From the sequence record SRR20825019_2015: a DNA stretch of 56,946 bases; one strand, 5' to 3'. Below the pieces are notes generated by a model, which was not told the origin of the DNA, did no database searches, and saw only the letters and a program-made list of their open reading frames with translations. Within the stretch, counting starts at the first letter, position 1. Each line of letters starts with the position of its first letter. The position numbers and the translations under genes are program-made. Shown piece by piece: positions 3,713 through 28,096 of this stretch.

Positions 3713-3719
3713 ATGCAAA

Positions 3720-4925: not shown

Positions 4926-4932
4926 TTCTTAA

Positions 4933-9263: not shown

Positions 9264-9274
9264 TCCCTTGCCTT

Positions 9275-12111: not shown

Positions 12112-12130
12112 TCACAAAAAATTAGAAATT

Positions 12131-12763: not shown

Positions 12764-12768
12764 GAGCT

Positions 12769-13764: not shown

Positions 13765-13776
13765 ACATTGGTAGAA

Positions 13777-14400
13777 ATGGAATTTAAGACTTTAAGAAAT
13801 ATTGAAAACAGTTTCAGGCAAATACGGCTGTATGCCATCGTATTTGCCGTACTCTGCACCAGCGTGGTAGGATATGCCGTATGGCAATCCTACCACTTTG
13901 CAGAATTGCAACGGCAAAAGATTTATGTTTTGGACAATGGCAAGTCGTTGATGTTGGCACTTTCACAGGATGCGAGCATTAACCGTCCTGTGGAAGCCCG
14001 TGAACACGTAAGGCGTTTCCATGAACTGTTCTTTACACTGGCCCCGGACAAGCGTGCCATCGAGAGCAATATGAAACGGGCATTCAACCTTGCCGACAAA
14101 AGTGTATTCGACTATTACAAAGACCTTTCGGAAAAGGGGTACTACAACCGCATAATATCAGGCAATGTACAGCAACGCATCGAAGTGGACAGTGTGGTCT
14201 GCAACTTCAACACCTATCCCTATGCCGTCAGGACGTATGCCAAGCAATATATCATCCGTTCGAGCAATTTGACAAGACGGAGCCTGGTCACATCCTGCTA
14301 TCTCGTGAATTCCGTCCGCTCGGACAACAATCCACAGGGCTTTAATATCGAGAAGTTCAGCGTACTGGAAAACAAAGACGTGGAAGTTATAGAACGCTAA
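13777..14400 (+). CDS. traK: TraK (VirB8-like)
   Basis: MEFKTLRNIENSFRQIR…EAREHVRRFHELFFTLAPD…RSDNNPQGF. Confidence 0.94.
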   Translation: MEFKTLRNIENSFRQIRLYAIVFAVLCTSVVGYAVWQSYHFAELQRQKIYVLDNGKSLMLALSQDASINRPVEAREHVRRFHELFFTLAPDKRAIESNMKRAFNLADKSVFDYYKDLSEKGYYNRIISGNVQQRIEVDSVVCNFNTYPYAVRTYAKQYIIRSSNLTRRSLVTSCYLVNSVRSDNNPQGFNIEKFSVLENKDVEVIER

Positions 14401-14409
14401 ATCAATATC

Positions 14410-14838
14410 ATGGAAGCACTATCAGATTTGAGCACATTTACACAAACCCTAACCGCAAAGGGGTATAACGGCTATTTCCATACCCAGGGTGCGTATGCAG
14501 GAAAGCTGAAGGAAAGCATCAGTGAGTACCTCGAAAACTGCCGAAACGGTACGGAGGGGGAACCAAAGCCGGAGTTGTTACTCACGGGCTATCTGCAATG
14601 GGCAGGTGAAGACAAACCCCGTGTGGAATGTACCCTTTGGGTAAAACACCTGAACGGAAAATTCTTCCTGGACAAAATGGAAATAGCAAGGAAAGACCGC
14701 TTCGGGCAATTGCTGAAACAATCCAAGCTGACCGACCTTTCCGTGATGACTATACCCAGTGCAATGGAGGCAATCGCTATGGTAAAAGATACCCCAAAAC
14801 AAAAAGCTGTTCAAAGCAGCAGGCGTTTCAAGCTGTAA
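14410..14838 (+). CDS. Hypothetical protein inside tra operon
   Basis: 142-aa ORF, 9 nt after traK, same strand; no motif recognised. Confidence 0.75.
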   Translation: MEALSDLSTFTQTLTAKGYNGYFHTQGAYAGKLKESISEYLENCRNGTEGEPKPELLLTGYLQWAGEDKPRVECTLWVKHLNGKFFLDKMEIARKDRFGQLLKQSKLTDLSVMTIPSAMEAIAMVKDTPKQKAVQSSRRFKL

Positions 14839-14859
14839 TAACGGATAAAACATTGAAGC

Positions 14860-15132
14860 ATGAAAAATCCAAGAAAAAGGATAAGCGATTGGTTGGACAA
14901 GCTGGACGGGCAGTGGCAGGCGATGCCTGTTAAAAGGCAGCACCGCTATGCACTGCTGTTCTTTGCGGGCTATGCGCTATTGTCCATTATCGTGATAACC
15001 GAAGTCTGTTATGAAGTGGGCAAACCCAATAATGGAATGACGATAGAACATATCGAAAACCCGGTTATCCAACAAAGAAAGTCCCCGGTAATAACGCAGG
15101 ACAGCATTTCAGAAATCATTAAACACAAATAA
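14860..15132 (+). CDS. traL: TraL-like small membrane protein
   Basis: Single TM segment, IEHI motif, immediately upstream of traM. Confidence 0.7.
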   Translation: MKNPRKRISDWLDKLDGQWQAMPVKRQHRYALLFFAGYALLSIIVITEVCYEVGKPNNGMTIEHIENPVIQQRKSPVITQDSISEIIKHK

Positions 15133-15133
15133 T

Positions 15134-16450
15134 ATGAAAGATAACAAAAACAAGAGAGCGAGTTTTCTGGTCGAAAGTGACGGGCAGAAAAGCGGAACGG
15201 AGGCACCGAATGACGGTGCGCAGCATAAGGCTGAAAGGCTGAAAAAGCCTATCATTTTTGTCCTTATGGGCGTGGTGTTTCTCGGCTGTATGTATTTAAT
15301 CTTTAAACCATCATCCGAAGAAAACGAAGTCGAAGATTTTGGTCTGAACGATGTCGTACCACAGGCAACCGACGAAGGGCTTCAGTCCGACAAGCAAAAG
15401 GCATACGAGCAAGAGATGATGAAGCAGAAAATGGAAGAAAAACGCAGCTCCCTGATGTCCTTGTCGGACTACTGGAACACGGAAAGTACTACTGATGAAG
15501 AAACAGGACAAACGGAAGAGGACAACGGGGATGAATACAAAGGCGGTTCACGTAAAGGGGGCAATCCGGCATTGAACAGTTACCGCAATGCGCAAAGTAC
15601 CCTGACTTCTTTTTACGATAACAGCGATTACGAAACCCAGGAGCTCCGCAAACAAGTCGAGGAACTCAAAGAGCAACTGGCTGAAAAGGATGTACCGCCA
15701 AATACGACCGTTGAGGATCAGTTGGCATTGATGGAGAAATCCTATGAAATGGCATCCCGTTACATGCCATCCAGCCAAACGCAGACGCATGAAGCGGACA
15801 CGCAGGTTTCGGCAAAGGGCAACCAAAGGGAATACTTTGTGGCATTCACGCCTGCAAGGAAAAATGCCGTGTCTTCCCTCTATCGGGAGCCATCAGACAG
15901 TGCTTTCCTTGCAAACTGGAGCGAAACCCGCAACAGGGGATTTTATACGGCCGGTGTTTCGCAGCAGGTAATACAGCCCAAAAACAGCATCCGGGCGGTG
16001 GTGCAGGAAACACAGATCGTAACGGGAGAAAGCGGGGTACGATTGCGCTTACTGGAAACGGCACAAACACCCAACCATACCATTCCGGCAGGAACGGTAG
16101 TAATGGCAAATGCCAAGTTTGCAAGCGGCAGGCTGCAACTAAGGGTAACATCCATCGAACTGGAAGGAAATATTATCCCTGTGGATATATCGGTGTACGA
16201 TCTGGACGGACAGCAAGGACTGTACGTACCATACTCGCCTGAAATGAACGCCCTTACTGAAATGGCCGGCAATATGAGCCAGACTTCCGGAACAAGCGTA
16301 ATGCTCACGCAATCAGCAGGGCAGCAGGTTGCCGCAGACCTTAGCCGTGGCGTGGTACAGGGTATTTCGGGCTACTTCTCCAAGAAAGTGAGGACACCGA
16401 AAGTTACCGTCAAAGCTGGTCACAGGCTGCTCCTTGTTTCAAAAAATTAA
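15134..16450 (+). CDS. traM: TraM (VirB10-like)
   Basis: N-terminal TM, coiled coil, VRLRLLE…YDLDGQQGLYVP…SKKVRTPKVTVKAG. Confidence 0.94.
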   Translation: MKDNKNKRASFLVESDGQKSGTEAPNDGAQHKAERLKKPIIFVLMGVVFLGCMYLIFKPSSEENEVEDFGLNDVVPQATDEGLQSDKQKAYEQEMMKQKMEEKRSSLMSLSDYWNTESTTDEETGQTEEDNGDEYKGGSRKGGNPALNSYRNAQSTLTSFYDNSDYETQELRKQVEELKEQLAEKDVPPNTTVEDQLALMEKSYEMASRYMPSSQTQTHEADTQVSAKGNQREYFVAFTPARKNAVSSLYREPSDSAFLANWSETRNRGFYTAGVSQQVIQPKNSIRAVVQETQIVTGESGVRLRLLETAQTPNHTIPAGTVVMANAKFASGRLQLRVTSIELEGNIIPVDISVYDLDGQQGLYVPYSPEMNALTEMAGNMSQTSGTSVMLTQSAGQQVAADLSRGVVQGISGYFSKKVRTPKVTVKAGHRLLLVSKN

Positions 16451-16479
16451 ATGTTCAATACTGAAAAACAGAATCAAAA

Positions 16480-17382
16480 ATGAAAACAATATTTAAAATC
16501 CTATTGGCAATAGTTGGCTTAATGGTCCTCCATGCCAACACCTATGCACAACAACTTGCATCCCATACCACCAAACTGGATATGGGCAAAATAGCGCCTT
16601 ATGAAATGCAGGTAACGTATAACAAAACCTCACACCTGATATTTCCGTCCGCCATCCGTTATGTGGATCTGGGCAGTGAGTACCTGATTGCGGGCAAGGC
16701 AGAAGACGCAGAAAACGTACTGCGTATCAAAGCTACCGTGAAGGACTTTGAGGGAGAAACCAATTTTTCGGTGATTACCGATGACGGCAGGTTTTACAAC
16801 TTCAATGTGTATTACAGTGCCCATCCCAATTCGATGAACTATGACCTGCTCAATATGCAAAAGGCTTTGGACAGGGAAAGTGGTAACGATGTGCTATTTG
16901 AGGAACTGGGCAGCAGTTCACCGTCATTGGCAGGATTGCTTATGGAAACCATCTACAAAAGGAATAAAAGGTATATCAAACATATCGGGGCAAAAAGCTA
17001 CGGGATCCAATTCCTGCTCAAAGGGATCTATGTCCACAATGGCAAATTCTATTTCCATACCGAAGTAAGGAATAAGGGCAATGTCCCTTTCCAAATCGAC
17101 TTTGTGAATTTCAAGGTCGTGGACAAAAAAGTGGCCAAGCGCACCGTGGTACAGGAAAAACCGATGACCCTGTTGCGCATGTACAAACCGCTTACCGGAA
17201 TTGAGGGGAATACCACCGACCAGAACGTGTTCCTGCTCGACCAGTTTACCATGACTGATGACAAGATACTCGTTATCGAAATCTTTGAGAAAAATGGTGG
17301 CAGACAGCAAATATTGCAGGTGGAAAACTCCGATCTGGTTCATGCCAGACCCATCAAGGAGATGCACCTAAAGATTAATTAA
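16480..17382 (+). CDS. traN: TraN (VirB9-like)
   Basis: VTYNKTSHLIFPSAIRYVDLGS…ETNFSVIT…EKNGGRQQ. Confidence 0.94.
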   Translation: MKTIFKILLAIVGLMVLHANTYAQQLASHTTKLDMGKIAPYEMQVTYNKTSHLIFPSAIRYVDLGSEYLIAGKAEDAENVLRIKATVKDFEGETNFSVITDDGRFYNFNVYYSAHPNSMNYDLLNMQKALDRESGNDVLFEELGSSSPSLAGLLMETIYKRNKRYIKHIGAKSYGIQFLLKGIYVHNGKFYFHTEVRNKGNVPFQIDFVNFKVVDKKVAKRTVVQEKPMTLLRMYKPLTGIEGNTTDQNVFLLDQFTMTDDKILVIEIFEKNGGRQQILQVENSDLVHARPIKEMHLKIN

Positions 17383-17399
17383 CCCAAAAGGAGACGACA

Positions 17400-17957
17400 A
17401 TGATAAAATACATTTTTGCCGTAGTACTTGCCATGTTAAGTATGACGGCACTACAGGCGCAACGTATGCTTCCGGGACAAAAAGGTCTGGAAATAAATGC
17501 GGGTATGTTGTCCAAAGAAGTCAGCGATAATTATTACCTGAACCTGACCCTTACCGTAAATGGGAAGAACGGTAATTACTGGATATGGGCAGCGGAATAT
17601 ACCCATCAATTTACTGATTACAGGGAGTTGGAAATACCATTGGAAGCCTATACGGGTGAAGTGGGATACAGTCTTCAGTTGTTGGGCGATGCGCGAAAGA
17701 CCATTACTTTAAATGCAGGGGTTACCGCCCTTGCCGGTTACGAAACCATTAACCGTAATGAGGCAATCCTGTATGATGGGGCAATCATCCTGAACGAAGA
17801 TAATTTCATTTACGGCATAGGTGGTCAGCTTTCATTGGAGACCTACCTGTCCGACCGGGTTGTGCTGCTTTTGAAAGGACGTACCAAAGTGTTTTGGGGT
17901 ACGGATTTAAAACAGTTCCGTCCATCGGCAGGGATCGGATTAAGGTTTAACTTTTAA
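17400..17957 (+). CDS. traO: TraO outer-membrane protein
   Basis: AQRMLPGQKGLE…ALAGYETIN…LETYLSDR, C-terminal Phe. Confidence 0.9.
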   Translation: MIKYIFAVVLAMLSMTALQAQRMLPGQKGLEINAGMLSKEVSDNYYLNLTLTVNGKNGNYWIWAAEYTHQFTDYRELEIPLEAYTGEVGYSLQLLGDARKTITLNAGVTALAGYETINRNEAILYDGAIILNEDNFIYGIGGQLSLETYLSDRVVLLLKGRTKVFWGTDLKQFRPSAGIGLRFNF

Positions 17958-17968
17958 AAAGAACAACA

Positions 17969-18403
17969 ATGAAACGATTATTGAATAAAAGCAGATTGAT
18001 ATGGTTGGTTATCCTGGCCTTTACAAGTGCGGTGGTATTATTCTCTTGTGATAAGGAAGAGTTGGAAATACAACAGAACTACCCGTTTGAGGTCAGGGTG
18101 ATGCCCGTTCCCGGAGAGGTAGCCAGTGGTCAGACCGTTGAAATAAGGATGACGATAGAGCGAGACGGGAATTTCAACGATACGGAATACTTTATCCGTT
18201 ATTTCCAGTTTGACGGTCAAGGCACGTTACAGTATTTCAGTGAACCACCATACCTGCCCAATGACCTTTATCAGCTACCGGCTACACAGTTCAGGCTGTA
18301 CTACACTTCACAGTCCACCGTAACGCAGTCGTTTGACGTATGGGTTTCGGACAACTTCGGAAATGAACGGCAAGTGAGTTTTCAGTTTAACAATGGCGAA
18401 TGA
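17969..18403 (+). CDS. traQ: TraQ lipoprotein (DUF3872)
   Basis: Lipobox LFSC, QQNYPFEVRVMPVP, YFIRYFQFDGQG, FRLYYTS. Confidence 0.9.
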   Translation: MKRLLNKSRLIWLVILAFTSAVVLFSCDKEELEIQQNYPFEVRVMPVPGEVASGQTVEIRMTIERDGNFNDTEYFIRYFQFDGQGTLQYFSEPPYLPNDLYQLPATQFRLYYTSQSTVTQSFDVWVSDNFGNERQVSFQFNNGE

Positions 18404-18523: not shown

Positions 18524-18796
18524 ATGATGTCATCGTTGGTCATAGGTATCATATTTTTGGTTTTGGGCTTGGGCCTGCGTTATTGGATTAACCGCCGGAA
18601 GTTTTACAGGCGGAGCCCCACCGGTGCCGAGGGCTTTTCAAGCTATGAAAAATCGGTTGCCACCAGATTTTTTGAACGGACCGGTAAATGGGTAGCCTAC
18701 GCCTTGATTATTTTCGGGCTTTTGTCGTTGTGGGTCTATTCCAAGGAGAAAAAAGAAGTGGCATCCCAAAATACGGAGGTGCAAAATCCTCAATAA
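18524..18796 (+). CDS. Small two-TM membrane protein
   Basis: Two hydrophobic segments flanking RYWINRRKFYRRSPTGAEGFSSYE. Confidence 0.75.
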   Translation: MMSSLVIGIIFLVLGLGLRYWINRRKFYRRSPTGAEGFSSYEKSVATRFFERTGKWVAYALIIFGLLSLWVYSKEKKEVASQNTEVQNPQ

Positions 18797-18951
18797 GCAA
18801 CAATATAATTATATGTAGCGGCGCGGGTCTTTACGACCGTTCCTTTTGTGCCAAACCATGCCTCCCAAGGCCAAACACTCTCTTAATCTGCATATCCCCC
18901 AAACCCTTTCCTAATTTCCATTTCACCCAAGAAAAAAAGAGGAAAGGAATT

Positions 18952-19242
18952 ATGGAAGTGATAGCAATACCCAAGTCGGTTCTCAAAGAACTGTCCACAG
19001 AACTGGATGAACTTTTACGGCTTACTACCGATGTAAGCGAAACCTATACAGCCATCTTCAACAAAGAAAGATGGCTCGACAATCAGGAAGTATGCCTGAT
19101 GCTCGGTATCAGCAAACGCACATTGCAGTCTTATAAAAATAAAGGGCTTTTGCCTTATTCCAAACTAAACCGAAAAAACTATTACAAATTTTCGGACGTA
19201 CAGCGTTTACTTGCTTCGGATACCTCTCCCCAAAATAAATGA
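18952..19242 (+). CDS. Excisionase-like helix-turn-helix protein (HTH_17)
   Basis: WLDNQEVCLMLGISKRTLQSYKNKGLLPYSK; start set at ATG 18952. Confidence 0.88.
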   Translation: MEVIAIPKSVLKELSTELDELLRLTTDVSETYTAIFNKERWLDNQEVCLMLGISKRTLQSYKNKGLLPYSKLNRKNYYKFSDVQRLLASDTSPQNK

Positions 19243-19553
19243 GCATGGAATTTTTTGATAACGATGCCGAAGAAATAGCTTACTACAAGAAGAAGCTCGA
19301 TGAACTCCGTACCCGGATAGAATTGATACTGGAGCATTTCCGTCCCGTAATGAACGGTGATATTTACCTGTCAGGCGAAGACGTGTGCCGTTTGCTACAT
19401 ATCAGCAAACGCACCTTGCAACAATATCGGGACGATAACATCCTGCCCTATGTGCAGATTGGGGGCAAAATCATATTCCGGCAATCGGACATACTGCATG
19501 TATTGGAAGATAATTATGTAGCTAGGTCACAAGAACAAAGGACAAATGAGTGA
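19239..19553 (+). CDS. Second excisionase-like HTH_17 protein
   Basis: YLSGEDVCRLLHISKRTLQQYRDDNILPYVQIGGKI; ATGA overlap with the previous gene. Confidence 0.88.
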   Translation: MSMEFFDNDAEEIAYYKKKLDELRTRIELILEHFRPVMNGDIYLSGEDVCRLLHISKRTLQQYRDDNILPYVQIGGKIIFRQSDILHVLEDNYVARSQEQRTNE

Positions 19554-19584
19554 TTGTGTAAGATGATTAACATCGCTATCTTTG
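19554..19584 (+). promoter_or_regulatory. Bacteroidota housekeeping promoter
   Basis: TTG (19554-19556), 20-nt spacer, TATCTTTG (19577-19584) matching -33 TTG / -7 TAnnTTTG. Confidence 0.7.
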
Positions 19585-19604
19585 TACCTGAAAATATTAG
19601 AAAA

Positions 19605-19810
19605 ACTTAAAGTGTTTTTGCTTTAAGTCTCGATACTAAAAACTGGTAATTTTTAAGACAACGAGACAGATAGGTAAGAACGCTCATGCCATAGGCGTGG
19701 GCGCTCGCTTATTCGTTGTCGGGCATACCAGTGCCTTAGTATCGGTAAGTGTGGTTGCCTGCGCTCTTTTTTTGTGCAGGGTTCCACCACTAACAATAAA
19801 ATGAGGTACT
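19605..19810 (+). ncRNA. Putative structured cis-regulatory leader RNA
   Basis: Nested stems CGATACTAA/TTAGTATCG, ACTGGTA/TACCAGT, GACAACGA/TCGTTGTC, CGCTCATGCC/GGCGTGGGCG plus two flanking hairpins. Confidence 0.55.
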
Positions 19811-20260
19811 ATGGAAACGGTAAACACCCCTGTACAAATCGGCATCGCATTTATCAATGACGAAAGTCCGCTTTTGGATCTGATTTGCAATGAACTTGTT
19901 GCTTCAGGAATCGATGTTCTGTTCCGTTCGGGGAATATCGAGGACGGACTATCCCTATTATCGACATTAACGGAACTTCCGCAGGTTTGTGTTGTTGACC
20001 TTGATTTTGATGACATCGGCGTGATGGCTCATCTGCGGGAATTGAAAACGCAATACCCGATTATAAAACTAATTGCCCATAGTGATATTGATTCGGGAAA
20101 AACTGTAAATTCTATTTTGGAAATAGGTTTTGACGGTTATCTCCTTGTCGGCAGCGATGCGGACGATTTTAAAAAAGCCATCGAGGGTATTTGCAACGAC
20201 AAAAGATATTTTAGTACGGGCGTATCGGAAGTTGTTCGGGACTATTTTGGCAATAAATAA
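19811..20260 (+). CDS. Stand-alone atypical receiver-domain protein
   Basis: NarL-like REC pattern (IAFIND…VCVVDLD…IKLIAHS…GFDGYLL) with no output domain. Confidence 0.8.
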   Translation: METVNTPVQIGIAFINDESPLLDLICNELVASGIDVLFRSGNIEDGLSLLSTLTELPQVCVVDLDFDDIGVMAHLRELKTQYPIIKLIAHSDIDSGKTVNSILEIGFDGYLLVGSDADDFKKAIEGICNDKRYFSTGVSEVVRDYFGNK

Positions 20261-20546
20261 CAGTTTAATCTCAACAGCATAAAATATCTGTTCTAATCAA
20301 GCGACGTTCTTTTGCTTCTTTTCTTTGGTCGCAATGTGGAAAGAAAAGAAGTACCTACCATAGCAAAAATGGGATAACGAATATCCCATGCAAAAAATCC
20401 CGCAACCTGTTTGGTGAAATGTAAGGAAAGGTAATTGCTGACGGGTACATTTTGGCAAAGTGGTTGCACCCATTTAATGCAAAAAGACTGCCCCGACCAT
20501 CGGGAGGGAGTGTCTTTTTGCCGCCCGCTCCAATAGCGGGGTCGGC

Positions 20547-21356
20547 TCAGGCAACTTTTAGGGGATGGGTGGTAAAATCTTTCAGGTTGTGGAAAAATCC
20601 CCTGTACGGTGTCAATCCGTTGCGGAACAATCCCCAAAGTAAAGAGCAACCCATTTGTGTCAATGAGGAGTTGATAAATAAGTCCTGTTTTTCCAAGGCT
20701 TCAACCAGACTACAACTTGGAGTACCGTCCTGCTCTTCGGATTGCTTCAGCAGTTCGCCAAATTCTTCGGTAACGAATGGCAGGCTTGCCACCGTTTCGT
20801 ACTTTTCGGATTGGGGTTGCTGTATTTCCCCAATAGTAGATAACAATACTTGCCCTGTGTACTGGCTGTTGCCAAAGTCCAACCAATATTTGGGGTTATC
20901 CCTGTAATTCCTGCGGTCACTTACTTCTTTCAGTATCTCGGCAACGCCAAACCTTGCCTGTACATTATCCACGCAAGTAATGGTAAGGGTCGCCCTGGCT
21001 TCTTCGGGTACTTGTCCGAAATTATCCTTTTCAAACTTTTGGGTTTCGGCTTTCCAGTTAGTCCCCGAAAAACGGTTGGCTCGGTTTATCAGTGCCACGG
21101 ATTTGTACAATCCTGTTTCACATTCCGCAAAACGCTGTCTGCCCAAATTAGCACTGGTAATCCTATCATCATCCCAAAGACGGACTTGCAATCCTGCGTG
21201 TCCCAATTCGATTAAACTATGGTTCATTTCCATTAAGGCAGTCAACACCTTTGAGCCTGTGCCACCCGCTCCGATAAGGTTTACCGAAATCGGGTTGGTA
21301 GGGCTTATGAGATAGTTGTCCGTAAGATGGACTGCTGTTTTTTCTGTATTCATCAC
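20547..21356 (-). CDS. PRTRC system ThiF/E1-like protein
   Basis: LIGAGGTGS, DDDRITSANLGRQ, TCVDN, WLDFGN, PSCS (candidate catalytic Cys). Confidence 0.92.
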   Translation of the reverse strand: MMNTEKTAVHLTDNYLISPTNPISVNLIGAGGTGSKVLTALMEMNHSLIELGHAGLQVRLWDDDRITSANLGRQRFAECETGLYKSVALINRANRFSGTNWKAETQKFEKDNFGQVPEEARATLTITCVDNVQARFGVAEILKEVSDRRNYRDNPKYWLDFGNSQYTGQVLLSTIGEIQQPQSEKYETVASLPFVTEEFGELLKQSEEQDGTPSCSLVEALEKQDLFINSSLTQMGCSLLWGLFRNGLTPYRGFFHNLKDFTTHPLKVA

Positions 21357-22075
21357 AATAGATTTTTAAGGGTTTTGTTGTTCTTTTTCAATACCTCTTT
21401 GGGAAAAGGTTTATCTGTACCGACCAGTTCTTTCCATACATTTACACAATTCCCTTTTATGGGGCTGTGGCTTCCCAATAAATGGCTGAAATAGCTGTTA
21501 AAAAAGTAGTCTTCCCATGCGGTTGTAAATTCCTCGACCGAAGCCGAATTTTTGATGTCAATATTTACAGTCCCCATACATACGTTGCCGTTCTCATATA
21601 CATTGAAAAATGGGGCATAATGCAAGGGTGTGTTTTCGGTGGGTCGTCTGTCGCTTTTCAACGCAAATACGTAAAGGGTGCTTTTGCTTGCCAACCAAAG
21701 CATTGGGGGTATTTGTGCCTTTCCGTTGGGGATGCCCAGACCGTTCACAAAATACAGTTGCTTTTGCTGTGCTTTGGTGTACCACAGTACCGTTCCTTTT
21801 TTGCTCGGATTGATATGCAGGATGTTGGTCGGTAAAATCCCCTTCGGCTTTAAAAAGGCTTTGTTCCTTTCTTCACTGGTCTGTAAGGACTTTGCCAATA
21901 CGTTGGCTTCTTTTACCGTTAATGGGTGCGCATTGATAGGGTTGCCGTCTTTGTCCATATCGAAATGCTCCACGTACATATCGGTTTCCGCTGCTTTGGT
22001 CTGATAGAATACCAATGCGGATTTTGGATGGTACAATTTGCCGAAATTCTCGGTTATGTCGTTAATATTGTTCAT
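21353..22075 (-). CDS. PRTRC system protein B (prokaryotic E2-like)
   Basis: LHYAPFFNVYENGNVCMG, WEDYFFNSYFSH. Confidence 0.9.
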   Translation of the reverse strand: MNNINDITENFGKLYHPKSALVFYQTKAAETDMYVEHFDMDKDGNPINAHPLTVKEANVLAKSLQTSEERNKAFLKPKGILPTNILHINPSKKGTVLWYTKAQQKQLYFVNGLGIPNGKAQIPPMLWLASKSTLYVFALKSDRRPTENTPLHYAPFFNVYENGNVCMGTVNIDIKNSASVEEFTTAWEDYFFNSYFSHLLGSHSPIKGNCVNVWKELVGTDKPFPKEVLKKNNKTLKNLL

Positions 22076-23241
22076 TGTTCTTCTGTTTTATATTCATATA
22101 ATAGACTGCCCAAATCCTCTAATAGAGCAAACAAACGGTTCTCAAAATCAAGATTGTTTGCAGTTATTTCGTTTCCGTCAAAGCGTTTGAAAATGGTCGG
22201 TTCTTCGATTTCCCCGTACTCGTTAAACTCGTTGTTGATACAGTCCGCAAGACTTTCATACAACCAACCTTTAGTGTCCGACACGAATGAAATGTACTTT
22301 TCCATTCCGATAATTTCATGGTCATAATCATCAGTATCGGGGGCTTGTTCAGGTGCATTTCGGAACACGCTTGCAGTCGGATATTCATTGTAAAGAGCAA
22401 AGGCGTTGCAAGCCATTTTATGGCATGCCATATCAAAGTCATCCCGAATTTTAAAACCGTTCAAGCGTTGTTCAAATAGCTGTAAATTGATACGGTTGTA
22501 CAGTTTCTGTTCAATCCTGTCACCAATGGTTTCGGCTTTCCTCAATTCACCTTTATAAAATTCGGTTTCGTCCGTATGGTCATCGTATTCCACCCATTCG
22601 GTAAACATTTCGTATTGCCAATATAAATAGGTGCTTTCCTGCCTGTAATACGGAATGTCCGCAATATGGTACAAGTAACTGCAAACCGATAGGAGTAGCT
22701 GTGCAGTCCGTTTCCGCTTTTTGTTGTGCAACATGCTGAATAGTGGCACAACGGGAATATAGAAAAGGGTCGTGCCTGTGTCGTATCGCTGTTCACTTAT
22801 CAAAAATGTTTTCCTGCTGTCCTGTGCCAAACGTAAGTTGTCCCAATTTACTACGGAGCGTTTTAGCTTGGTTTCCAAATCCCAAGTTGTCAGTACTATA
22901 TTGTAGGGGAAACCATATTCTTTGGTCTGCATAGGTTCAATACGGTAATGTTCGGCAAGACTGGAAAGGGACTTATAAAAATCCCTCTCCGTTTTTGCAG
23001 CTTCCTTACAAGCCTGTACAGATTGTGCCGTTTTCAGTTTGGGCAGAAACGTACATTTCAAAAAACCATTGGTAGCATGGCTATCGGTACGGCTTTCCGC
23101 TTGTCTTTCTGTATTTCGTTTGCGTCTTTTGGCTTTTGCATCCAATTGGCAAACTCGCCCAACTGTCGGTGCAGTTGCTGTTGCCGTTGCTGTTCGGGAA
23201 AGCTGATAATTCCCGATATGATGTTGCGTTGCATAATTCAT
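22072..23241 (-). CDS. PRTRC protein F-like alpha-helical protein
   Basis: 389-aa ORF between proteins C and B, ATGA-coupled to B; assignment mostly positional. Confidence 0.65.
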   Translation of the reverse strand: MNYATQHHIGNYQLSRTATATATAPTVGRVCQLDAKAKRRKRNTERQAESRTDSHATNGFLKCTFLPKLKTAQSVQACKEAAKTERDFYKSLSSLAEHYRIEPMQTKEYGFPYNIVLTTWDLETKLKRSVVNWDNLRLAQDSRKTFLISEQRYDTGTTLFYIPVVPLFSMLHNKKRKRTAQLLLSVCSYLYHIADIPYYRQESTYLYWQYEMFTEWVEYDDHTDETEFYKGELRKAETIGDRIEQKLYNRINLQLFEQRLNGFKIRDDFDMACHKMACNAFALYNEYPTASVFRNAPEQAPDTDDYDHEIIGMEKYISFVSDTKGWLYESLADCINNEFNEYGEIEEPTIFKRFDGNEITANNLDFENRLFALLEDLGSLLYEYKTEEQ

Positions 23242-23257
23242 TCTTTTGATTTTTAGT

Positions 23258-23476
23258 TTAACCTTTCGTACCCATTACGCTTTCAAATCTGTACTCGACC
23301 GCATCGTCCTTGATTTGTGGTGCAGATACTTTTGCAGTCGTCAAAATCGGGTACATATTGGCGTAATAATTCATCACGGCTTCCACGCTCCAACGTGCTT
23401 CGGGGTCGGTCAATCTGATGTCCTGTCCTTTATCTTTGAGTATAAAAACTCGCTCTAATTGCGTTGCTAATAACAT
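23258..23476 (-). CDS. PRTRC system protein C (prokaryotic ubiquitin-like)
   Basis: 72 aa: LERVF…LTDP…SVEAVMNYYANMYPILTTA…GTKG-COOH. Confidence 0.92.
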   Translation of the reverse strand: MLLATQLERVFILKDKGQDIRLTDPEARWSVEAVMNYYANMYPILTTAKVSAPQIKDDAVEYRFESVMGTKG

Positions 23477-23493
23477 AGTTCCTTAATTTAGGG

Positions 23494-24030
23494 TTATACA
23501 TTCTGTTCCTGTTCTGCCCCGAAAAGGTCGGGAGCAAATTTTTCGGACAATTCCTTTTTGCGTTTGCGTATCTCGTCCGCTTTTTCGGGAAACTCCGCTA
23601 TATCGGGTACTTTTATCCACGCTTCACGGAATTTGCCCTCTTTTTCAAGTTCGTCCACCTTTGCCATACTATCCTTGTATTTCTTGTCTTTGGCTTCTTT
23701 TTCCTTTTTGGCTTTCTCGGCTTTCTCTTTCTCCATAGCCGATTGTTTTTTGGCTTCCTCGATTTGTTTTAGGAATTTTTCCATATCAACCATGACCCCC
23801 GAAACGGTTTGGATAGGTGCGGTTATCTGCTCAAAAAATCCCTCGTCAAACTCCTGCGGTGTGGCGTTGAAAGTCAATGGGGGAATAAGGTTTTTGGCAT
23901 TATCACCACACGCTTCGTTATGGAGCATGACCGATACGATCAGGTTGTTTTCCGCTCCCTTTGAAATATTCAGTTGTAGATTCCCTGTAAACTCCAACTG
24001 TGCTATTTGATTAAAGAAATTTGTTTTCAT
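23494..24030 (-). CDS. PRTRC system protein E
   Basis: MKTNFF…PPLTFNATPQEFDEGFF, charged coiled coil, C-terminal PDLF. Confidence 0.85.
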   Translation of the reverse strand: MKTNFFNQIAQLEFTGNLQLNISKGAENNLIVSVMLHNEACGDNAKNLIPPLTFNATPQEFDEGFFEQITAPIQTVSGVMVDMEKFLKQIEEAKKQSAMEKEKAEKAKKEKEAKDKKYKDSMAKVDELEKEGKFREAWIKVPDIAEFPEKADEIRKRKKELSEKFAPDLFGAEQEQNV

Positions 24031-24051: not shown

Positions 24052-24384
24052 TTACTTATTGATTTCTGCTATTTGGTCTATCCTGCCATAGATTATGCTC
24101 CGTAGGCTCGTTTTATCGGGTGCGTTATACTCGTGCCAACTGCCGTACTGTTTCACGACATAGGTTTTCAGTACATCTTCAAACCCGAACCGATAGCCCA
24201 TTAGCGGTACTGCTTTTTTGAAATAGGCGTTTCGGTTTACCGCTTCTGCAAGCCAATTTTTCTCGGTTCGATGCAATTTCCCGCCCTTGTTCAGTTTTTC
24301 CCTTAACTGATAAGCCTTTGAGGTTTTCAGCCTTTCCAATTCGGGAACATCGTGGCGGACAAACTTTGTGGCTATTGCTTCCAT
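24052..24384 (-). CDS. Hypothetical basic protein
   Basis: 110-aa co-oriented ORF with an A-rich initiation region. Confidence 0.75.
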   Translation of the reverse strand: MEAIATKFVRHDVPELERLKTSKAYQLREKLNKGGKLHRTEKNWLAEAVNRNAYFKKAVPLMGYRFGFEDVLKTYVVKQYGSWHEYNAPDKTSLRSIIYGRIDQIAEINK

Positions 24385-24411
24385 TGGGTCTGTTTTAATG
24401 TTTTACACTTA

Positions 24412-24609
24412 CTAATTTTCAGAGGTAAAAACCCCATTTACATAATAGCCGTATGACTGTTCCCAAAGGCGTATTAAGCCGTCCGTATCTACATAGAAAT
24501 ACTTCGTCCGATTGCATTAAATAATATGTATGCTTTGGTCTTTGTACTCCCTGTCAAGGCTCTGTGCTTTAGCCAAACTTTTGGCTTCCTCTATTGATTT
24601 TGCTTTCAT
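24412..24609 (-). pseudogene. Small 65-codon gene with internal TAA (not in ORF track)
   Basis: MKAKSIEEAKSLAKAQSLDREYKDQSIHII*CNRTKYFYVDTDGLIRLWEQSYGYYVNGVFTSEN*; stop at 24517-24519; fills the gap between DUF932 and the next gene. Confidence 0.7.
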
Positions 24610-24623
24610 AATCCCTGTTTTTA

Positions 24624-24655
24624 ACAGGCTACCACCGATGAAGGCGGTAGCCTGT
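24624..24655 (-). other. Intra-operon hairpin
   Basis: ACAGGCTACC / GGTAGCCTGT 10-bp stem just after the DUF932 stop; no U-tract on the minus strand. Confidence 0.6.
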
Positions 24656-24661
24656 GGTTGT

Positions 24662-25735
24662 TTAATTAAGGTTTAGGATTTCCGCACCGTCCGTTGCAAA
24701 GGCATTGCAGTATTCAAATGCCTTTTGAGATTTGAGTTGGGCAGTACCGCCCATTACGATACTCTGCAACTTGGCTTCGTCATCCCTGTAATTGCGTACA
24801 TTCTGAAAGTAGCCCGTAACAGCGTTGTATGCCCCGAACAATGTACCTTTGGTGGTGTCCATTTGTTGGGTATCGCTTACCATTGCGTAAGCAAAGGCAT
24901 CATCAATGGTGTTTTTGAACACCGTGGATAGTTCATCCTCTGCACCGTTCTTGATGTGTTCCAAAGATTCCTTGTTCGGGCAAAGAGCCAATTGGATGAG
25001 CTTTCTGACCTCTCGGTCTGTTACCCTCACTTTTGCCCACTCGTTGAAAATGCCTTCCAATTGAGTTGTCAAGGTATTGGCTAATCCCATAATCTTGTGG
25101 GCATTCTCGATACGCTGTTTTGCGCCTGAAGTGTGTTTGATACGCACTTCGTTGGTCATATTCCGCAATGAGGCGTTAAGGGTGTTTTGGCAAACGATAC
25201 GGATAGGTGTAAACGCCGCGGTAATACTTCCGCTACCATCGTGGCTTGTGGTCAGGAAAATGTACTTTTCCGTTACATCATCGCCATTGCCCACACGGAT
25301 ATAACCGGGCAGTTTAGCCGTAATGAAAATACGTTCCCCATTGCCCAATGCCCCTGCGGTTTCGTACAGGATGCCCTCGCCACCGCCTACAATACTGTCA
25401 AAGAAATTGAACGCTTCACGGTTCTGTACGATATGGTAATCCTTACCGACCACGCCCAATACGGCATTGTTATCGGTACGGATGTTGGCAAAATAGTGGG
25501 GTACTTCCAGTTCGTTGCTCCCTATCTCGATACCCTGTTCAGTTTCGATAATCCCCGAACCTTTCGTGAATAGTGGGGATTTGACTACTTCATAATCCAA
25601 TCCTGCGTATTTGATAGCTTCCTCACTTGTCGGGTATTCCTCTACGATTTGCCCCAGACCATGCCATGCTTTTTGCTGTACTGAAAAGAAACTGTACTTT
25701 CCTGTTCTCTCGTTGAAATTGATGTTATGTGCCAT
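24662..25735 (-). CDS. DUF932 domain protein (phage/plasmid-like)
   Basis: MAHN…AWHGLG…VQNREAF…ETAGALGNG…TSHDGSGS…TPIRIVCQNTL…IKHT. Confidence 0.92.
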   Translation of the reverse strand: MAHNINFNERTGKYSFFSVQQKAWHGLGQIVEEYPTSEEAIKYAGLDYEVVKSPLFTKGSGIIETEQGIEIGSNELEVPHYFANIRTDNNAVLGVVGKDYHIVQNREAFNFFDSIVGGGEGILYETAGALGNGERIFITAKLPGYIRVGNGDDVTEKYIFLTTSHDGSGSITAAFTPIRIVCQNTLNASLRNMTNEVRIKHTSGAKQRIENAHKIMGLANTLTTQLEGIFNEWAKVRVTDREVRKLIQLALCPNKESLEHIKNGAEDELSTVFKNTIDDAFAYAMVSDTQQMDTTKGTLFGAYNAVTGYFQNVRNYRDDEAKLQSIVMGGTAQLKSQKAFEYCNAFATDGAEILNLN

Positions 25736-25747
25736 GATTTTGAAATT

Positions 25748-26170
25748 TTAGAATGTTTGAAAAAAGATTGAATGTTTGTTGTTAAAATGGAGGTCGTCCT
25801 CTGTTTCCTGTTTGGTGTTGTTGCTTTCAGATTGTGCAGTAGCCTGTAGGGTTTCTGCTTTCCTGCTACCTCCGTGCAATTTGATTTGTGAGGTATGGAA
25901 ATTCAGTCCTGCATGTGCTTTGCCGTCCATATCCGTCCACGCCCTTACGCTTACCCTGCCTGTGAGTTCTACCAAAGAGCCTTTGGTGAGTATCTTGGCT
26001 ACGTTCGGGGTTATCCAATAAGAGCAATCGAAAAAGGCGGTTTGCTCTACCCGTTCGCCCTGTTTGGTTTGATAGCTGTCGTTTACCGCTACCGAAAAGT
26101 TTACCACCTGTCTGTTGTCGTCAAGGGTTTTTACTTCCGCATCCCTTGTTAGTCTTCCTGTGATGTTCAT
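25748..26170 (-). CDS. ssb: Single-stranded DNA-binding protein (C-terminal tip apparently frameshifted)
   Basis: ITGRLTRDAEV…VNFSVAVN…LTKGSLVELTGR; ends EDDLHFNNKH… rather than DDLPF*. Confidence 0.93.
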   Translation of the reverse strand: MNITGRLTRDAEVKTLDDNRQVVNFSVAVNDSYQTKQGERVEQTAFFDCSYWITPNVAKILTKGSLVELTGRVSVRAWTDMDGKAHAGLNFHTSQIKLHGGSRKAETLQATAQSESNNTKQETEDDLHFNNKHSIFFQTF

Positions 26171-26830: not shown

Positions 26831-28096
26831 TTAAACTGCAATTTTTTCTTCCATCGCACTAAAGGAAACTTCCATTGCCTTTAAATTTCTGGCAACAATA
26901 TCCATGTCCATACCAACTTTCTCATTGAGTATTTTGGCATAGATCTGAGTGGTGGTAATGTTCGTATGCCCCATCATTTTTTGTACACTTTCAAGTGAGG
27001 CACCAGCCGTAAGCACCATTGTAGCAAACGTATGGCGTGCCGTGTGGAAGGTTACCTTTTGCTCGGTAGTAATCTCTGCAATTGCCATAATCCTGGCGAT
27101 ATGATTGTTGCAGGTTGCATTGGATGGAACCGGAAAAACAAATTCGTTCCTTGTTGTACCGAAATACTTCTCAATGATTTTCTTGGGTATTTCCAATAAA
27201 CGGACGTTGGACGAAACATCGGTTTTCTTTCTCCGGCTGATAACCCACTGATGGCCGTCAAAGAAATTCTGAATATTGTTCCGCTTCAGTTTTTTGATGT
27301 CCGCATAGGACAAGCCCGTAAAACAACTGAAAACAAAGAGATCTCGGACAAGTTCGTGCCTTTTCTTCGGAAGTTGGCAAAGCATAATTTTCTCAACATC
27401 TTCTTTCAATAGGAAACCCCTGTCAGCCTCCTTCATGGTGATTTCGTAATCCTCGAAAGGATTATTGCGGATCATGCCTTTTTTGATGGCCAGCTCCACC
27501 ATACGTAAAACGGGCATGGTGTAAACCCAAACCGTGTTATGGGTACATTCCTTGTCCACACGCAGGTAGAAATCAAATTCACGGATAAAATCGGAAGTAA
27601 GCTCTTTGAAAGCCATGTCTTCCCTTAAATATCGTAGCTTGATAAACTCTGCAAGGTGGTTGTACACGATTTTATATTTATCATAGGTGCTTTGGGAACG
27701 CTCCTTTTTGGCTACCATTTTTGCAAAATCGTCATTGTGTGCCTGGAATACCTTTAGAATGGCATCTTCCATAATACCCACACCCAAAAAAGCAAGTTTC
27801 AATTTTTGCGGGGTGACAAAACCATCGTATTTGAGCAATTCCTCATAATACCTGTCGATCCGTAACCGGATATTGTCCAATTTTGTATTGGTGCTTAATG
27901 CCTTTTTGCTTTTCCCGGCGACCCTTCCATGTCTCAAATCCCAATTATTGGGGTCAATTTCCAGCTTTGTACTGAATGATGCAGCTTTTCCGTCAATAGT
28001 GATACGCCCCATAATGGCAACTGTGCCATTCTTCTTCGGCTCGTTTTTCTTTAAGTAGAAAAGGAGCTTAAACGTTGACCTTTTCGTCTGTTCCAT
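26831..28096 (-). CDS. int: Tyrosine integrase, IntDOT-type
   Basis: Arm-binding N-terminus (STFKLLFYLK…IMGRITIDG), FTGLSYAD, HTARHTF, MGHTNITTTQIY. Confidence 0.95.
   Translation of the reverse strand: MEQTKRSTFKLLFYLKKNEPKKNGTVAIMGRITIDGKAASFSTKLEIDPNNWDLRHGRVAGKSKKALSTNTKLDNIRLRIDRYYEELLKYDGFVTPQKLKLAFLGVGIMEDAILKVFQAHNDDFAKMVAKKERSQSTYDKYKIVYNHLAEFIKLRYLREDMAFKELTSDFIREFDFYLRVDKECTHNTVWVYTMPVLRMVELAIKKGMIRNNPFEDYEITMKEADRGFLLKEDVEKIMLCQLPKKRHELVRDLFVFSCFTGLSYADIKKLKRNNIQNFFDGHQWVISRRKKTDVSSNVRLLEIPKKIIEKYFGTTRNEFVFPVPSNATCNNHIARIMAIAEITTEQKVTFHTARHTFATMVLTAGASLESVQKMMGHTNITTTQIYAKILNEKVGMDMDIVARNLKAMEVSFSAMEEKIAV

What the first reader, a model, noticed from the sequence alone, without database searches (positions are those of the whole stretch)
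20547..24030. Ubiquitin-like conjugation module (PRTRC E-C-F-B-ThiF) with no JAB protease or ParB in the window
Seen: E1-like ThiF (PSCS), E2-like protein B (NVCMG), and a 72-aa Ubl already ending in Gly (GTKG), so no maturation is needed. No JAB/protein A or ParB gene is present here. Known: PRTRC is a computationally defined mobile-element cluster, with function unknown to me; other bacterial E1/E2/Ubl systems act in phage conflict. Inference: it is co-oriented downstream of ssb and DUF932, so it may be expressed on entry into a recipient and tag host or element proteins, possibly irreversibly, as an anti-defence or establishment function.
Basis: partly seen in the sequence, partly recalled or inferred. 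Interest (0 to 1): 0.78.

Follow-up and report, generated by a model that had tools for sequence, protein, structure and literature searches.

The report
JAB-less ubiquitin-like module on an ICE
A conjugative element of a Bacteroidota bacterium carries a conserved five-gene ubiquitin-like tagging kit that lacks the usual tag-removing protease; the gene family is known, but its function has never been tested.

Summary
On the minus strand, 20547-24030 encodes PRTRC protein E, a 72-aa Prok_Ub ubiquitin-like protein (Ubl) ending GTKG, a 389-aa protein, a Prok-E2_D E2 (protein B) and a PRTRC ThiF E1, all above curated cut-offs except the 389-aa protein. No frame of the window encodes protein A (JAB) or a PRTRC-type ParB. 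The module belongs to the backbone of an integrative conjugative element (ICE). The order int-ssb-DUF932-E-C-F'-B-ThiF recurs in 80 related Bacteroidota loci. All 87 Ubl orthologues read end in GTKG. Five related genomes have no JAB or PRTRC-type ParB over cut-off. The 'F' label is positional only: the protein matches no F model and folds confidently into a fold with no clear PDB match. This is operon type 6d of Iyer et al. 2006, which TIGRFAMs call PRTRC, in a reduced form. JAB-less forms also occur on Pseudomonas, Alteromonas, Aeromonas, Vibrio and Deinococcus plasmids. The likely chemistry is E1-to-E2-to-target tagging without a dedicated deconjugase. A role in element establishment is plausible but untested, and leading-region status is not shown here.

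The parts
20547..21356 (-). PRTRC ThiF-family E1-like adenylating enzyme (269 aa). It carries G29xGGxG34, D62, N70, R73, Q74, K85, D130 and S214-C215-S216.
   Evidence: TIGR03736 230.6 bits, PF00899. The listed residues are invariant in 10 of 10 ThiF proteins from Bacteroidota, Pseudomonadota and Deinococcota. The start overlaps the stop of B by 4 nt.
21353..22075 (-). PRTRC protein B, an E2-like protein of family Prok-E2_D (240 aa). Candidate catalytic Cys166 sits in NVCMG; N158, G168 and H198 are conserved.
   Evidence: PF14460 E 1.2e-37; TIGR03737 134.6 bits against a cut-off of 131.45. C166, N158, G168 and H198 are invariant in 6 of 6 cross-phylum B proteins; all four are also invariant in 27 of 27 Bacteroidota B proteins. 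The conserved His after the Cys was noted by Iyer et al. 2006.
22072..23241 (-). F' (389 aa), an accessory protein in the position of PRTRC protein F. Residues 1-65 are predicted disordered and basic; residues 66-389 form a confident alpha/beta plus helical domain.
   Evidence: No Pfam, NCBIfam, PADLOC or PHROGs hit. 0 of 79 diverse homologues match PF14456 alpha-hel2. hhalign against canonical F gave probability below 1%. AF2 gave pLDDT 88.5 and pTM 0.80. Foldseek against PDB gave no hit at E <= 0.001, and the best VIA Z was 5.0. The family has 491 representative clusters and is present in 78 of 80 loci.
23258..23476 (-). PRTRC protein C, a 72-aa beta-grasp Ubl (Prok_Ub) whose last residue is Gly72 (GTKG-stop).
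   Evidence: PF14454 E 4.7e-27; TIGR03738 51.7 bits. 78 of 78 orthologues in the 80 loci are 72 aa and end in GTKG. 9 more from the phylum sample also end in GTKG.
23494..24030 (-). PRTRC protein E (178 aa). It has a conserved N-terminal domain, a K/E-rich helix, an invariant F165-x-P-x-L169-F170-G linear motif and an acidic tail.
   Evidence: PF19556 E 8.6e-76. The motif is invariant in 20 of 20 Bacteroidota E proteins. Most of the 10 non-Bacteroidota E proteins read end in a similar hydrophobic tip after a low-complexity linker. The AF2 model has low confidence, pLDDT 62.5.
24052..24384 (-). Optional 110-aa gene of no known family, in the variable slot between DUF932 and E.
   Evidence: No family hit. 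Present in 24 of 80 related loci.
24624..24655 (-). Conserved 13-bp-stem hairpin, starting 7 nt after the DUF932 stop codon. It may be a terminator, an attenuator or an RNA-stability element.
   Evidence: RNA fold -27 kcal/mol, z = -6.0, 0 of 200 shuffles as stable. A like hairpin (MFE <= -15 kcal/mol, core GGCTACCGCC...GGTGGTAGCC) follows DUF932 in 71 of 72 loci. No U-run follows it. No Rfam match.
24662..25735 (-). DUF932 / TIGR03299 phage/plasmid-like protein (357 aa).
   Evidence: PF06067 E 3.9e-70. Present upstream of the module in 72 of 80 loci. Also lies near the canonical PRTRC on Cupriavidus pHG1.
25748..26170 (-). Element-encoded single-stranded DNA-binding protein (140 aa).
   Evidence: PF00436 E 5e-18; TIGR00621 75.5 bits. 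Present in 74 of 80 loci.
20491..20505 (-). Terminator-like hairpin followed by a T-run, 42 nt after the ThiF stop codon. It likely ends the transcription unit.
   Evidence: Consensus scan. The number of such sites in the region equals the shuffle expectation, so this is weak evidence.
26831..28096 (-). Tyrosine integrase at the right end of the ICE. The junction with the chromosome lies near 28362.
   Evidence: PF00589, PF17293 and PF13102. The nearest held genome, G001, matches the window at 100% identity from 28362 onward and has no match to 20547-24030.

Best explanation
This is a reduced PRTRC-type ubiquitin-like conjugation module, the same kind as operon type 6d of Iyer et al. 2006. It is fixed in the backbone of a Bacteroidota integrative conjugative element, between the integrase/ssb/DUF932 end and the tra operon.

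Proposed mechanism, with steps 1-3 inferred from family membership and conserved residues:
1. The ThiF-like E1 adenylates Gly72 of the 72-aa Ubl and takes it onto Cys215.
2. The Ubl passes to Cys166 of the E2-like protein B.
3. B transfers it to a lysine of one or more target proteins. E and F' would act as specificity, docking or substrate factors. E has a conserved linear motif. F' has an unmatched fold and shows no conserved Cys, His or Asp among its invariant and nearly invariant columns.

The Ubl is encoded already mature, and neither the element nor related host genomes encode the system's JAB peptidase. Tagging would therefore not be reversed by a dedicated enzyme.

The biological role is inferred, not shown. 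The module most likely serves the element's own DNA processing or establishment, in line with its constant company of ssb and DUF932, rather than acting as cargo defence.

The confidence given is for the whole statement. Identity and anatomy are near certain, the conjugation chemistry is about 0.65, and the establishment role is about 0.4.
For: - Family assignments lie above curated cut-offs for ThiF, B, C and E.
- The nucleotide-binding and Mg-site residues of the E1 and its SCS Cys are invariant in 10 of 10 sequences from three phyla.
- The E2 Cys, Asn and His are invariant.
- The Ubl ends in GTKG in 87 of 87 Bacteroidota orthologues read.
- In 7 of 7 JAB-less systems from four phyla the Ubl ends exactly at Gly. 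C-terminal tails occur only where protein A is present, in 2 of 5 such systems.
- F', B and ThiF overlap by 4 nt each.
- Synteny across 80 loci of Flavobacteriia, Sphingobacteriia, Chitinophagia and Cytophagia: B 80, ThiF 79, F' 78, C 78, E 78, ssb 74, DUF932 72.
- There is no A or PRTRC-type ParB in the window or within 10 kb in 0 of 80 loci.
- None scored over cut-off in 5 of 5 related genomes.
- 0 of 7 module and neighbour proteins match PADLOC defence models, while the element's cargo genes match Gabija and Shedu strongly.
- On proteobacterial plasmids the cassette sits beside ParB, dnaN, ssb and DUF932.
- PRTRC B, C and E families appear in the leading-region table of Samuel et al. 2024.
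Against: - No experiment on any PRTRC protein was found.
- No PRTRC E1, E2 or Ubl has a relative in the PDB by sequence.
- B scores only 3 bits above its NCBIfam cut-off.
- The E2 lacks the classical His of the HPN motif (Iyer et al. 2006).
- No target is known.
- The tail-versus-JAB pattern rests on 12 systems and is not significant (my arithmetic, Fisher about 0.15).
- A conserved hairpin and a variable slot separate the module from ssb-DUF932.
- The nearest relaxase in relatives is 17-50 kb away, so early expression in recipients is not established.
- A host isopeptidase of another class could still reverse the tagging.
Confidence: 0.55

Rival explanations
1. The module acts in the donor or resident cell, not in the recipient. 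It would tag element or host proteins to regulate excision, replication or transfer of the ICE, or its stable maintenance.
For: - The module sits next to the integrase, two HTH_17 excisionase-like genes and a receiver-domain protein.
- On megaplasmids it is tied to ParB and dnaN, which are maintenance functions.
- The nearest relaxase is far from the module in 6 of 6 relatives.
Against: - The constant partners ssb and DUF932 are of the kind found in leading regions, and SSB families are enriched there (Samuel et al. 2024 passages).
- PRTRC families are listed in that paper's leading-region table.
- Nothing here tells donor from recipient action.
Confidence: 0.2
2. It is an anti-phage or anti-plasmid defence system carried as cargo. 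It would work like Bil, which tags phage structural proteins with a Ubl.
For: - Bil and type II CBASS show that bacterial E1/E2 systems can be immune systems (passages of PMC11601596).
- The same ICE carries Gabija and Shedu.
- An Elizabethkingia ICE preprint discusses PRTRC next to defence cargo.
Against: - 0 of 7 proteins match PADLOC models.
- The module keeps a fixed backbone position and order in 78-80 of 80 loci, at 75-96% identity of B, unlike variable cargo.
- The E1 is a single 269-aa domain and no JAB is present, unlike Bil as described.
- The module lies about 12 kb from the element's defence island, on the far side of the tra operon.
Confidence: 0.12
3. C is a sulfur carrier like ThiS or MoaD. 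ThiF would adenylate it for thiocarboxylate formation, feeding a modification of nucleic acid or a small molecule rather than protein tagging.
For: - ThiF/MoeB-type E1 proteins with small beta-grasp partners ending in Gly are the classic sulfur-transfer pairs (Iyer et al. 2006 passages).
- PAPS-reductase-family genes lie near PRTRC on three sampled plasmids: Alteromonas, Sphingobium and Vibrio.
Against: - An E2-fold protein with an invariant Cys is always present.
- No rhodanese, cysteine desulfurase or sulfur-acceptor enzyme is in the operon or in the 80 loci's conserved set.
- Canonical systems carry a JAB peptidase.
Confidence: 0.08

Closest known systems
Canonical PRTRC cassette (TIGRFAMs), which is operon type 6d of Iyer, Burroughs and Aravind 2006; example: Cupriavidus necator pHG1
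   Same: E, C (Prok_Ub), B (Prok-E2_D) and ThiF are homologous and in the same order. A roughly 380-aa protein lies between C and B. DUF932 is nearby, and the cassette is on a mobile element.
   Different: pHG1 has ParB upstream and protein A (DUF2016 plus Prok-JAB) between B and ThiF. Its F is PF14456 alpha-hel2. Its Ubl carries a 5-residue tail after the Gly. The window has none of these.
JAB-less PRTRC of proteobacterial and Deinococcus plasmids (P. aeruginosa, Alteromonas pAMDE1, Aeromonas, Vibrio, D. proteolyticus)
   Same: There is no protein A, on the whole plasmid in 5 of 5. The Ubl ends at Gly, and the order is E-C-X-B-ThiF.
   Different: The four proteobacterial plasmids keep a PRTRC-type ParB, and two of them (P. 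aeruginosa, Aeromonas) a plasmid dnaN nearby. B is under 35% identical to the window's.
Bacteroides/Parabacteroides form (B. thetaiotaomicron BT2645-BT2649; a P. distasonis plasmid)
   Same: The same five-gene order without A. The P. distasonis Ubl ends GTKG; the B. thetaiotaomicron Ubl was not read.
   Different: B is only 28% identical. E is twice as long (356 aa). PRTRC ParB-family genes are reported on some Bacteroidales ICEs.
Bil (BilABCD) anti-phage ubiquitin-like system
   Same: A Ubl, an E2 and an E1 are encoded together and no E3 is recognised. Protein conjugation has been shown for Bil (passages).
   Different: Bil has a JAB peptidase and a multi-domain E1 (IAD-AAD-CYS). No PADLOC model, of any defence system, matches here. 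The window's module is ICE backbone.
ThiF-ThiS and MoeB-MoaD sulfur-carrier pairs
   Same: A single-domain adenylating E1, and a small beta-grasp protein ending in Gly.
   Different: ThiF equivalog models score far below their cut-offs (25-28 bits against 159-275). An E2 is present, and there are no sulfur-transfer partners.

Membership tests
PRTRC cassette (TIGRFAMs/NCBIfam) | PRTRC ThiF-family protein (TIGR03736) | tested here: met
   230.6 bits against a cut-off of 144.75.
PRTRC cassette (TIGRFAMs/NCBIfam) | Protein B (TIGR03737; Pfam Prok-E2_D) | tested here: met
   134.6 bits against 131.45, a narrow margin. PF14460 scores 129.7 bits against 25.
PRTRC cassette (TIGRFAMs/NCBIfam) | Protein C (TIGR03738; Prok_Ub) | tested here: met
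   51.7 bits against 45.95. PF14454 scores 94 bits.
PRTRC cassette (TIGRFAMs/NCBIfam) | Protein E (TIGR03741; PF19556) | tested here: met
   46.3 bits against 37.95. PF19556 scores 254 bits.
PRTRC cassette (TIGRFAMs/NCBIfam) | Protein F (Pfam alpha-hel2, PF14456, as in pHG1) | tested here: not met
   No hit for the 389-aa protein. 0 of 79 homologues match. Profile-profile probability is below 1%. Only the position, the size and some UniRef names agree. A rapidly diverged F is not excluded; Iyer et al. 2006 call it 'rapidly diverging'.
PRTRC cassette (TIGRFAMs/NCBIfam) | Protein A (TIGR03735; DUF2016 plus Prok-JAB) | tested here: not met
   A six-frame HMM search of the window gave a best E of 0.65 against 1e-97 for controls. 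0 of 80 loci have it. 0 of 5 related genomes score over cut-off.
PRTRC cassette (TIGRFAMs/NCBIfam) | PRTRC ParB-family protein (TIGR03734) | tested here: not met
   Best window E is 2.6. In 5 related genomes only ParB ORFs of about 300 aa match, below cut-off and on other contigs. The window lacks the left part of the ICE, so its own ParB status outside the window is open.
Ubiquitin-like protein conjugation system (E1-E2-Ubl) | Beta-grasp Ubl with a free C-terminal Gly | tested here: met
   Prok_Ub match; the last codon before the stop encodes Gly; 87 of 87 orthologues agree. The fold itself was not modelled here.
Ubiquitin-like protein conjugation system (E1-E2-Ubl) | E1 adenylation motifs and a catalytic Cys | tested here: met
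   GxGGxG, D62, R73, K85, D130 and C215 are invariant in 10 of 10. The catalytic role of C215 is inferred.
Ubiquitin-like protein conjugation system (E1-E2-Ubl) | E2 (UBC-fold) with a catalytic Cys | tested here: met
   Prok-E2_D match; C166 is invariant. The classical HPN His is absent, per Iyer et al. 2006.
Ubiquitin-like protein conjugation system (E1-E2-Ubl) | Thioester and isopeptide formation | not testable with these tools
   This needs biochemistry.
Bil anti-phage system | BilC JAB peptidase and a multi-domain BilD E1 | tested here: not met
   No JAB is present. The E1 is a single 269-aa ThiF domain. No PADLOC model of any system matches.
Leading-region (early-entry) gene set of conjugative elements | [quoted passage not shown] | tested here: inconclusive
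   No oriT or relaxase lies in the window. The nearest relaxase in 6 of 6 related copies is 17-50 kb away, on the same strand, beyond the tra operon. The published table lists PRTRC B, C and E families, n = 5 each.

The most novel reading that the evidence does not exclude
The module is a one-way, deubiquitinase-free Ubl tagging machine that conjugative elements use when they establish in a new cell. Protein E would dock it, through its invariant PSLFG-type motif, onto the sliding clamp, SSB or replisome on the incoming DNA. B would then tag host or element proteins there. F' would be a new kind of E3-like specificity factor or the primary substrate. That would make this the first ubiquitin-like system working for a mobile element rather than against one.
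Probability: 0.2. Interest if true: 0.85.

Novelty: new variant of a known kind. Interest (0 to 1): 0.5.

Why it matters
Bacterial E1/E2/Ubl systems have so far been shown to work in anti-phage immunity (CBASS type II, Bil), and the role of Bub is still open (passages read). The PRTRC / type-6d family has been known from sequence since 2006. It sits on ICEs and megaplasmids of several phyla, including plasmids of clinical Pseudomonas, Aeromonas and Vibrio isolates. In the papers found by three searches its function is still called unknown.

The Bacteroidota form is the minimal version:
- It has five genes and no peptidase or ParB.
- Its Ubl is encoded already mature.
- It holds a fixed place in an ICE backbone, seen in 80 of 194 detected loci.

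That makes it a compact system in which to ask what a mobile element does with ubiquitin-like tagging. The answer bears on how conjugative elements establish in new hosts. By itself the window adds an anatomy and a comparison, not a function.

Tried and rejected
- Complex prediction with B, C and F' (residues 66-389) as partner returned 'no answer': score 0.00 in two runs, the partner's own fold uncertain, alignments not used. This counts neither for nor against binding. Three hand-ins met a full queue first.
- The AF2 model of E was too uncertain (pLDDT 62.5), so it was not used for a fold search.
- The protein-atlas search gave no usable hit for F'.
- The look-up of sequencing runs listed 4 DNA or unknown-type holders and no RNA holder. 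Expression could not be examined and read laying was not run.
- The window's own genome is not held. G001, the nearest held genome, lacks the module.
- The TIGR03735 search of 8 genomes found nothing but had no positive control. PF14464 and a self-built HMM with controls were used instead.
- The cross-phylum B alignment was too divergent for the search for related loci. The single-protein scan therefore returned only Bacteroidota relatives at 75-96% identity, which are not independent.
- I first counted the Methylomonas plasmid as JAB-less because its record has no annotation. The whole-record search found a JAB between B and ThiF, and the tally was corrected. A strict 'JAB present means tail present' rule was rejected, because three JAB-containing systems have tail-less Ubls.
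- The JAB 22 kb from B in genome G212 lies next to a separate 449-aa E1-like gene and an ATPase. It was rejected as a PRTRC partner.
- The sigma-70 promoter scan gave no excess over shuffles, and Bacteroidota promoters differ from that consensus.
- Rfam gave no match at E < 0.4.

Full report
**What is there.**
- ThiF matches TIGR03736 (230.6 bits, cut-off 144.75).
- Protein B matches TIGR03737 (134.6 against 131.45) and Pfam Prok-E2_D (E 1.2e-37).
- Protein C matches TIGR03738 and Pfam Prok_Ub (E 4.7e-27).
- Protein E matches TIGR03741 and PF19556 (E 8.6e-76).
- The 389-aa protein between C and B matches nothing in NCBIfam, Pfam, PADLOC or PHROGs.

Gene spacing is tight. E to C is 17 nt and C to F' is 16 nt. 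F'/B and B/ThiF each overlap by 4 nt. A terminator-like hairpin with a T-run follows ThiF at 20505-20491 (weak evidence).

**Setting.**
The window holds the right-hand part of an integrative conjugative element (ICE).
- Bacteroidota-type tra genes lie on the plus strand at 8961-18403: DUF4134, DUF4133, TraG, TraJ, TraM, DUF4138, TraO and TraQ.
- Two HTH_17 genes and a receiver-domain gene follow.
- The minus-strand block ThiF-B-F'-C-E-p110-DUF932-ssb comes next.
- A tyrosine integrase sits at 26831-28096.

The nearest held genome, G001, matches the window at 100% identity from 28362 onward and has no match to 20547-24030. The ICE therefore ends near 28362, and the rest of the window is chromosome with an efflux pump and a polysaccharide-utilisation locus. 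The left end of the ICE lies outside the window. Bases 452-8776 are cargo: Gabija (GajA, GajB), Shedu (SduA) and a 1096-aa protein.

**No JAB and no ParB.**
- None of the 47 main ORFs has a JAB or ParB domain.
- HMMs built from four canonical A proteins and six PRTRC ParB proteins were run on all six frames of the window. Best E-values were 0.65 and 2.6, while control loci scored 1e-97 or better.
- The window is incomplete, so relatives were examined. In 80 related loci of up to 20.7 kb, tblastn with A, ParB and canonical F seeds found nothing at E <= 1e-3 (0 of 80).
- In five whole genomes carrying a close copy, Prok-JAB gave no match over cut-off. There were two sub-threshold hits, on another contig or about 950 kb away. 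The PRTRC ParB model hit only ORFs of about 300 aa, below cut-off and on other contigs.
- In a sample of 301 genomes of the phylum, 8 have protein B. Of those 8, 6 have no Prok-JAB match at all. The one match over cut-off lies beside a separate 449-aa E1-like gene and an ATPase, so it belongs to another system.

**How conserved it is.**
- A scan of one genome per species found 194 loci encoding a relative of B. The best 80 (75-96% identity) come from Flavobacteriia, Sphingobacteriia, Chitinophagia and Cytophagia.
- Counts over the 80 loci, some of them cut by contig ends, are B 80, ThiF 79, F' 78, C 78, E 78, ssb 74, DUF932 72, TraQ 54, integrase 48 and p110 24.
- The order is always int-ssb-DUF932-(p110)-E-C-F'-B-ThiF, then regulators and the tra operon on the other strand.
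- These loci are close kin and are not independent.
- All 78 Ubl orthologues are 72 aa and end in GTKG, as do 9 more from the phylum sample.

**Comparison with the canonical cassette.**
- On Cupriavidus necator pHG1 the order is ParB-E-C-F-B-A-ThiF, with DUF932 about 6 kb away.
- There A is DUF2016 plus Prok-JAB, and F is Pfam alpha-hel2.
- This is operon type 6d of Iyer et al. 2006, of which I read passages and Table 1 text. That paper already lists B. thetaiotaomicron. It notes that the E2 lacks the classical His but has a conserved His after the Cys, which is H198 here. It calls the helical protein 'rapidly diverging'.
- JAB-less forms are not confined to Bacteroidota. The P. aeruginosa, Alteromonas, Aeromonas, Vibrio and D. 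proteolyticus plasmids sampled lack A. The whole plasmid records have no Prok-JAB in 6 of 6, counting the P. distasonis plasmid.

**Ubl C-termini.**
- In 7 of 7 JAB-less systems the Ubl ends exactly at Gly: window, P. distasonis, P. aeruginosa, Alteromonas, D. proteolyticus, Aeromonas and Vibrio.
- Of 5 JAB-containing systems, 2 have tails after the Gly: Cupriavidus with 5 residues and Xanthomonas with about 66.
- The other 3 have none: Rhizorhabdus, Sphingobium and Methylomonas.
- Tails therefore occur only where the peptidase is present. This fits a maturation role for A and a free Gly as the reactive end.
- Twelve systems are too few (Fisher about 0.15, my arithmetic), and JAB presence does not predict a tail.

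**Catalytic residues.**
- Across 10 ThiF proteins of three phyla, G29xGGxG34, D62, N70, R73, Q74, K85, D130 and S214-C215-S216 are invariant.
- From memory, not tested: the spacing of D130 and the later Cys recalls MoeB/ThiF-type non-canonical E1 proteins.
- In B, N158, C166, G168 and H198 are invariant.
- No PRTRC E1, E2 or Ubl has a sequence relative in the PDB.

**The two unknown core proteins.**
- F' has 1728 homologues in the clustered collection and 491 representative clusters.
- 0 of 79 diverse members match alpha-hel2, and hhalign against 10 canonical F proteins gives probability below 1%. The canonical F alignment is itself poor.
- AF2 with 79 sequences gives pLDDT 88.5 and pTM 0.80, with residues 1-65 disordered.
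- Foldseek against the PDB finds nothing at E <= 0.001. The search that does not rely on Foldseek gives a best Z of 5.0 over helical segments only, which is within the noise for helical proteins.
- Across the 79 sequences, the one invariant and 21 nearly invariant columns are mostly aromatic, Pro or Leu. The only polar ones are S91, N114, N336 and E367, and no Cys, His or Asp is among them. I read F' as a scaffold, adaptor or substrate rather than a replacement peptidase.
- E has a conserved N-terminal domain, a K/E-rich helix and an F-x-P-x-L-F-G motif invariant in 20 of 20 Bacteroidota sequences.
- The 10 E proteins from Proteobacteria and Deinococcus have a low-complexity linker, and most of them a hydrophobic C-terminal tip.
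- The motif recalls a clamp-binding or SSB-tip-like docking peptide. This comes from memory and is untested. dnaN lies next to the cassette on three sampled plasmids.

**Function.**
- The passages I read call the function unknown.
- The searches were 'PRTRC' (45 papers), a Prok-E2 / PRTRC system / conjugative set, and a ubiquitin-like / ThiF / JAB / E2-like set.
- The fixed backbone position, the company of ssb and DUF932, the plasmid company of ParB and dnaN, and the lack of PADLOC matches argue for an element-serving role rather than cargo defence.
- The table 'Other unknown leading families' of Samuel et al. 2024 lists PRTRC B, C and E families of 5 members each. The main text says the analysed families were enriched in leading regions and mostly encoded on the T-strand. 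I read those rows and passages only.

Limits on the 'expressed on entry' idea:
- A hairpin (-27 kcal/mol, z = -6.0) follows DUF932 here and in 71 of 72 loci. A slot of 54 to about 1100 nt comes before E.
- The nearest relaxase match to each of 6 related copies is 16.6-50.1 kb away, on the same strand and beyond the tra operon. I did not verify that each belongs to the same element.
- No oriT was mapped.

**Verdict.**
The family is known, and the reduced form is common: no JAB, no ParB, a pre-matured Ubl and an unrecognisable F'. The mechanism is inferred from conserved chemistry, and the biological role remains open.

Noticed in passing
window 452-8776 (minus strand): A defence cargo island sits upstream of the tra genes. 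It holds Gabija GajA (6959-8776, E 1e-227), GajB (4933-6975, E 2e-280), Shedu SduA (3720-4925, E 9e-144) and a 1096-aa protein with only a weak Cap4-nuclease-like N-terminus.
   Followed up: partly
window 24624-24655 (minus strand); L022-L101 downstream of DUF932: A sequence-conserved hairpin (core GGCTACCGCC, 6-nt loop, GGTGGTAGCC) starts a few nt after the DUF932 stop in 71 of 72 loci. One G-U pair would be a C-A mismatch on the other strand, which suggests it works on the transcript of this strand. No Rfam family matches.
   Followed up: partly
window 23494-24030 (protein E, residues 165-171); L018, L019, L105: An invariant FxPxLFG motif occurs in Bacteroidota E proteins, and hydrophobic C-terminal tips occur in most E proteins of other phyla. 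dnaN genes lie beside the cassette on three plasmids. This may be a docking motif for the clamp or SSB, but that is untested.
   Followed up: partly
window 24385-24661: The slot between DUF932 and E varies from 54 to about 1100 nt among relatives and holds optional small genes. p110 is present in 24 of 80 loci.
   Followed up: partly
L014 (G212:C1:1503326-1506637): A 449-aa ORF with a ThiF-type E1-like domain (glycine-rich nucleotide-binding motif) is followed by a 161-aa JAB protein, next to an AAA-type ATPase on the other strand. It lies 22 kb from a PRTRC B gene. It looks like a separate E1-JAB defence-type pair.
   Followed up: partly
L104 (D. proteolyticus plasmid pDEIPR02): Two successive B-like/ThiF pairs follow a single E and C, so the E2-E1 part of the cassette is duplicated.
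   Followed up: no
literature: bioRxiv 10.64898/2026.10.01.756045: A 2026 preprint reports recurrent sequence variation in a PRTRC protein B gene of a P. vulgatus mobile element in mice and links it to a diversity-generating retroelement (passages only). B is 75-96% identical among many co-resident elements. Cross-mapping of reads between elements should be excluded before that is accepted.
   Followed up: no
window 18688-20260 (plus strand): Two HTH_17 (excisionase-like) genes and a stand-alone receiver-domain protein without an output domain lie between the tra operon and ThiF. They recur in 30-41 of 80 loci.
   Followed up: no
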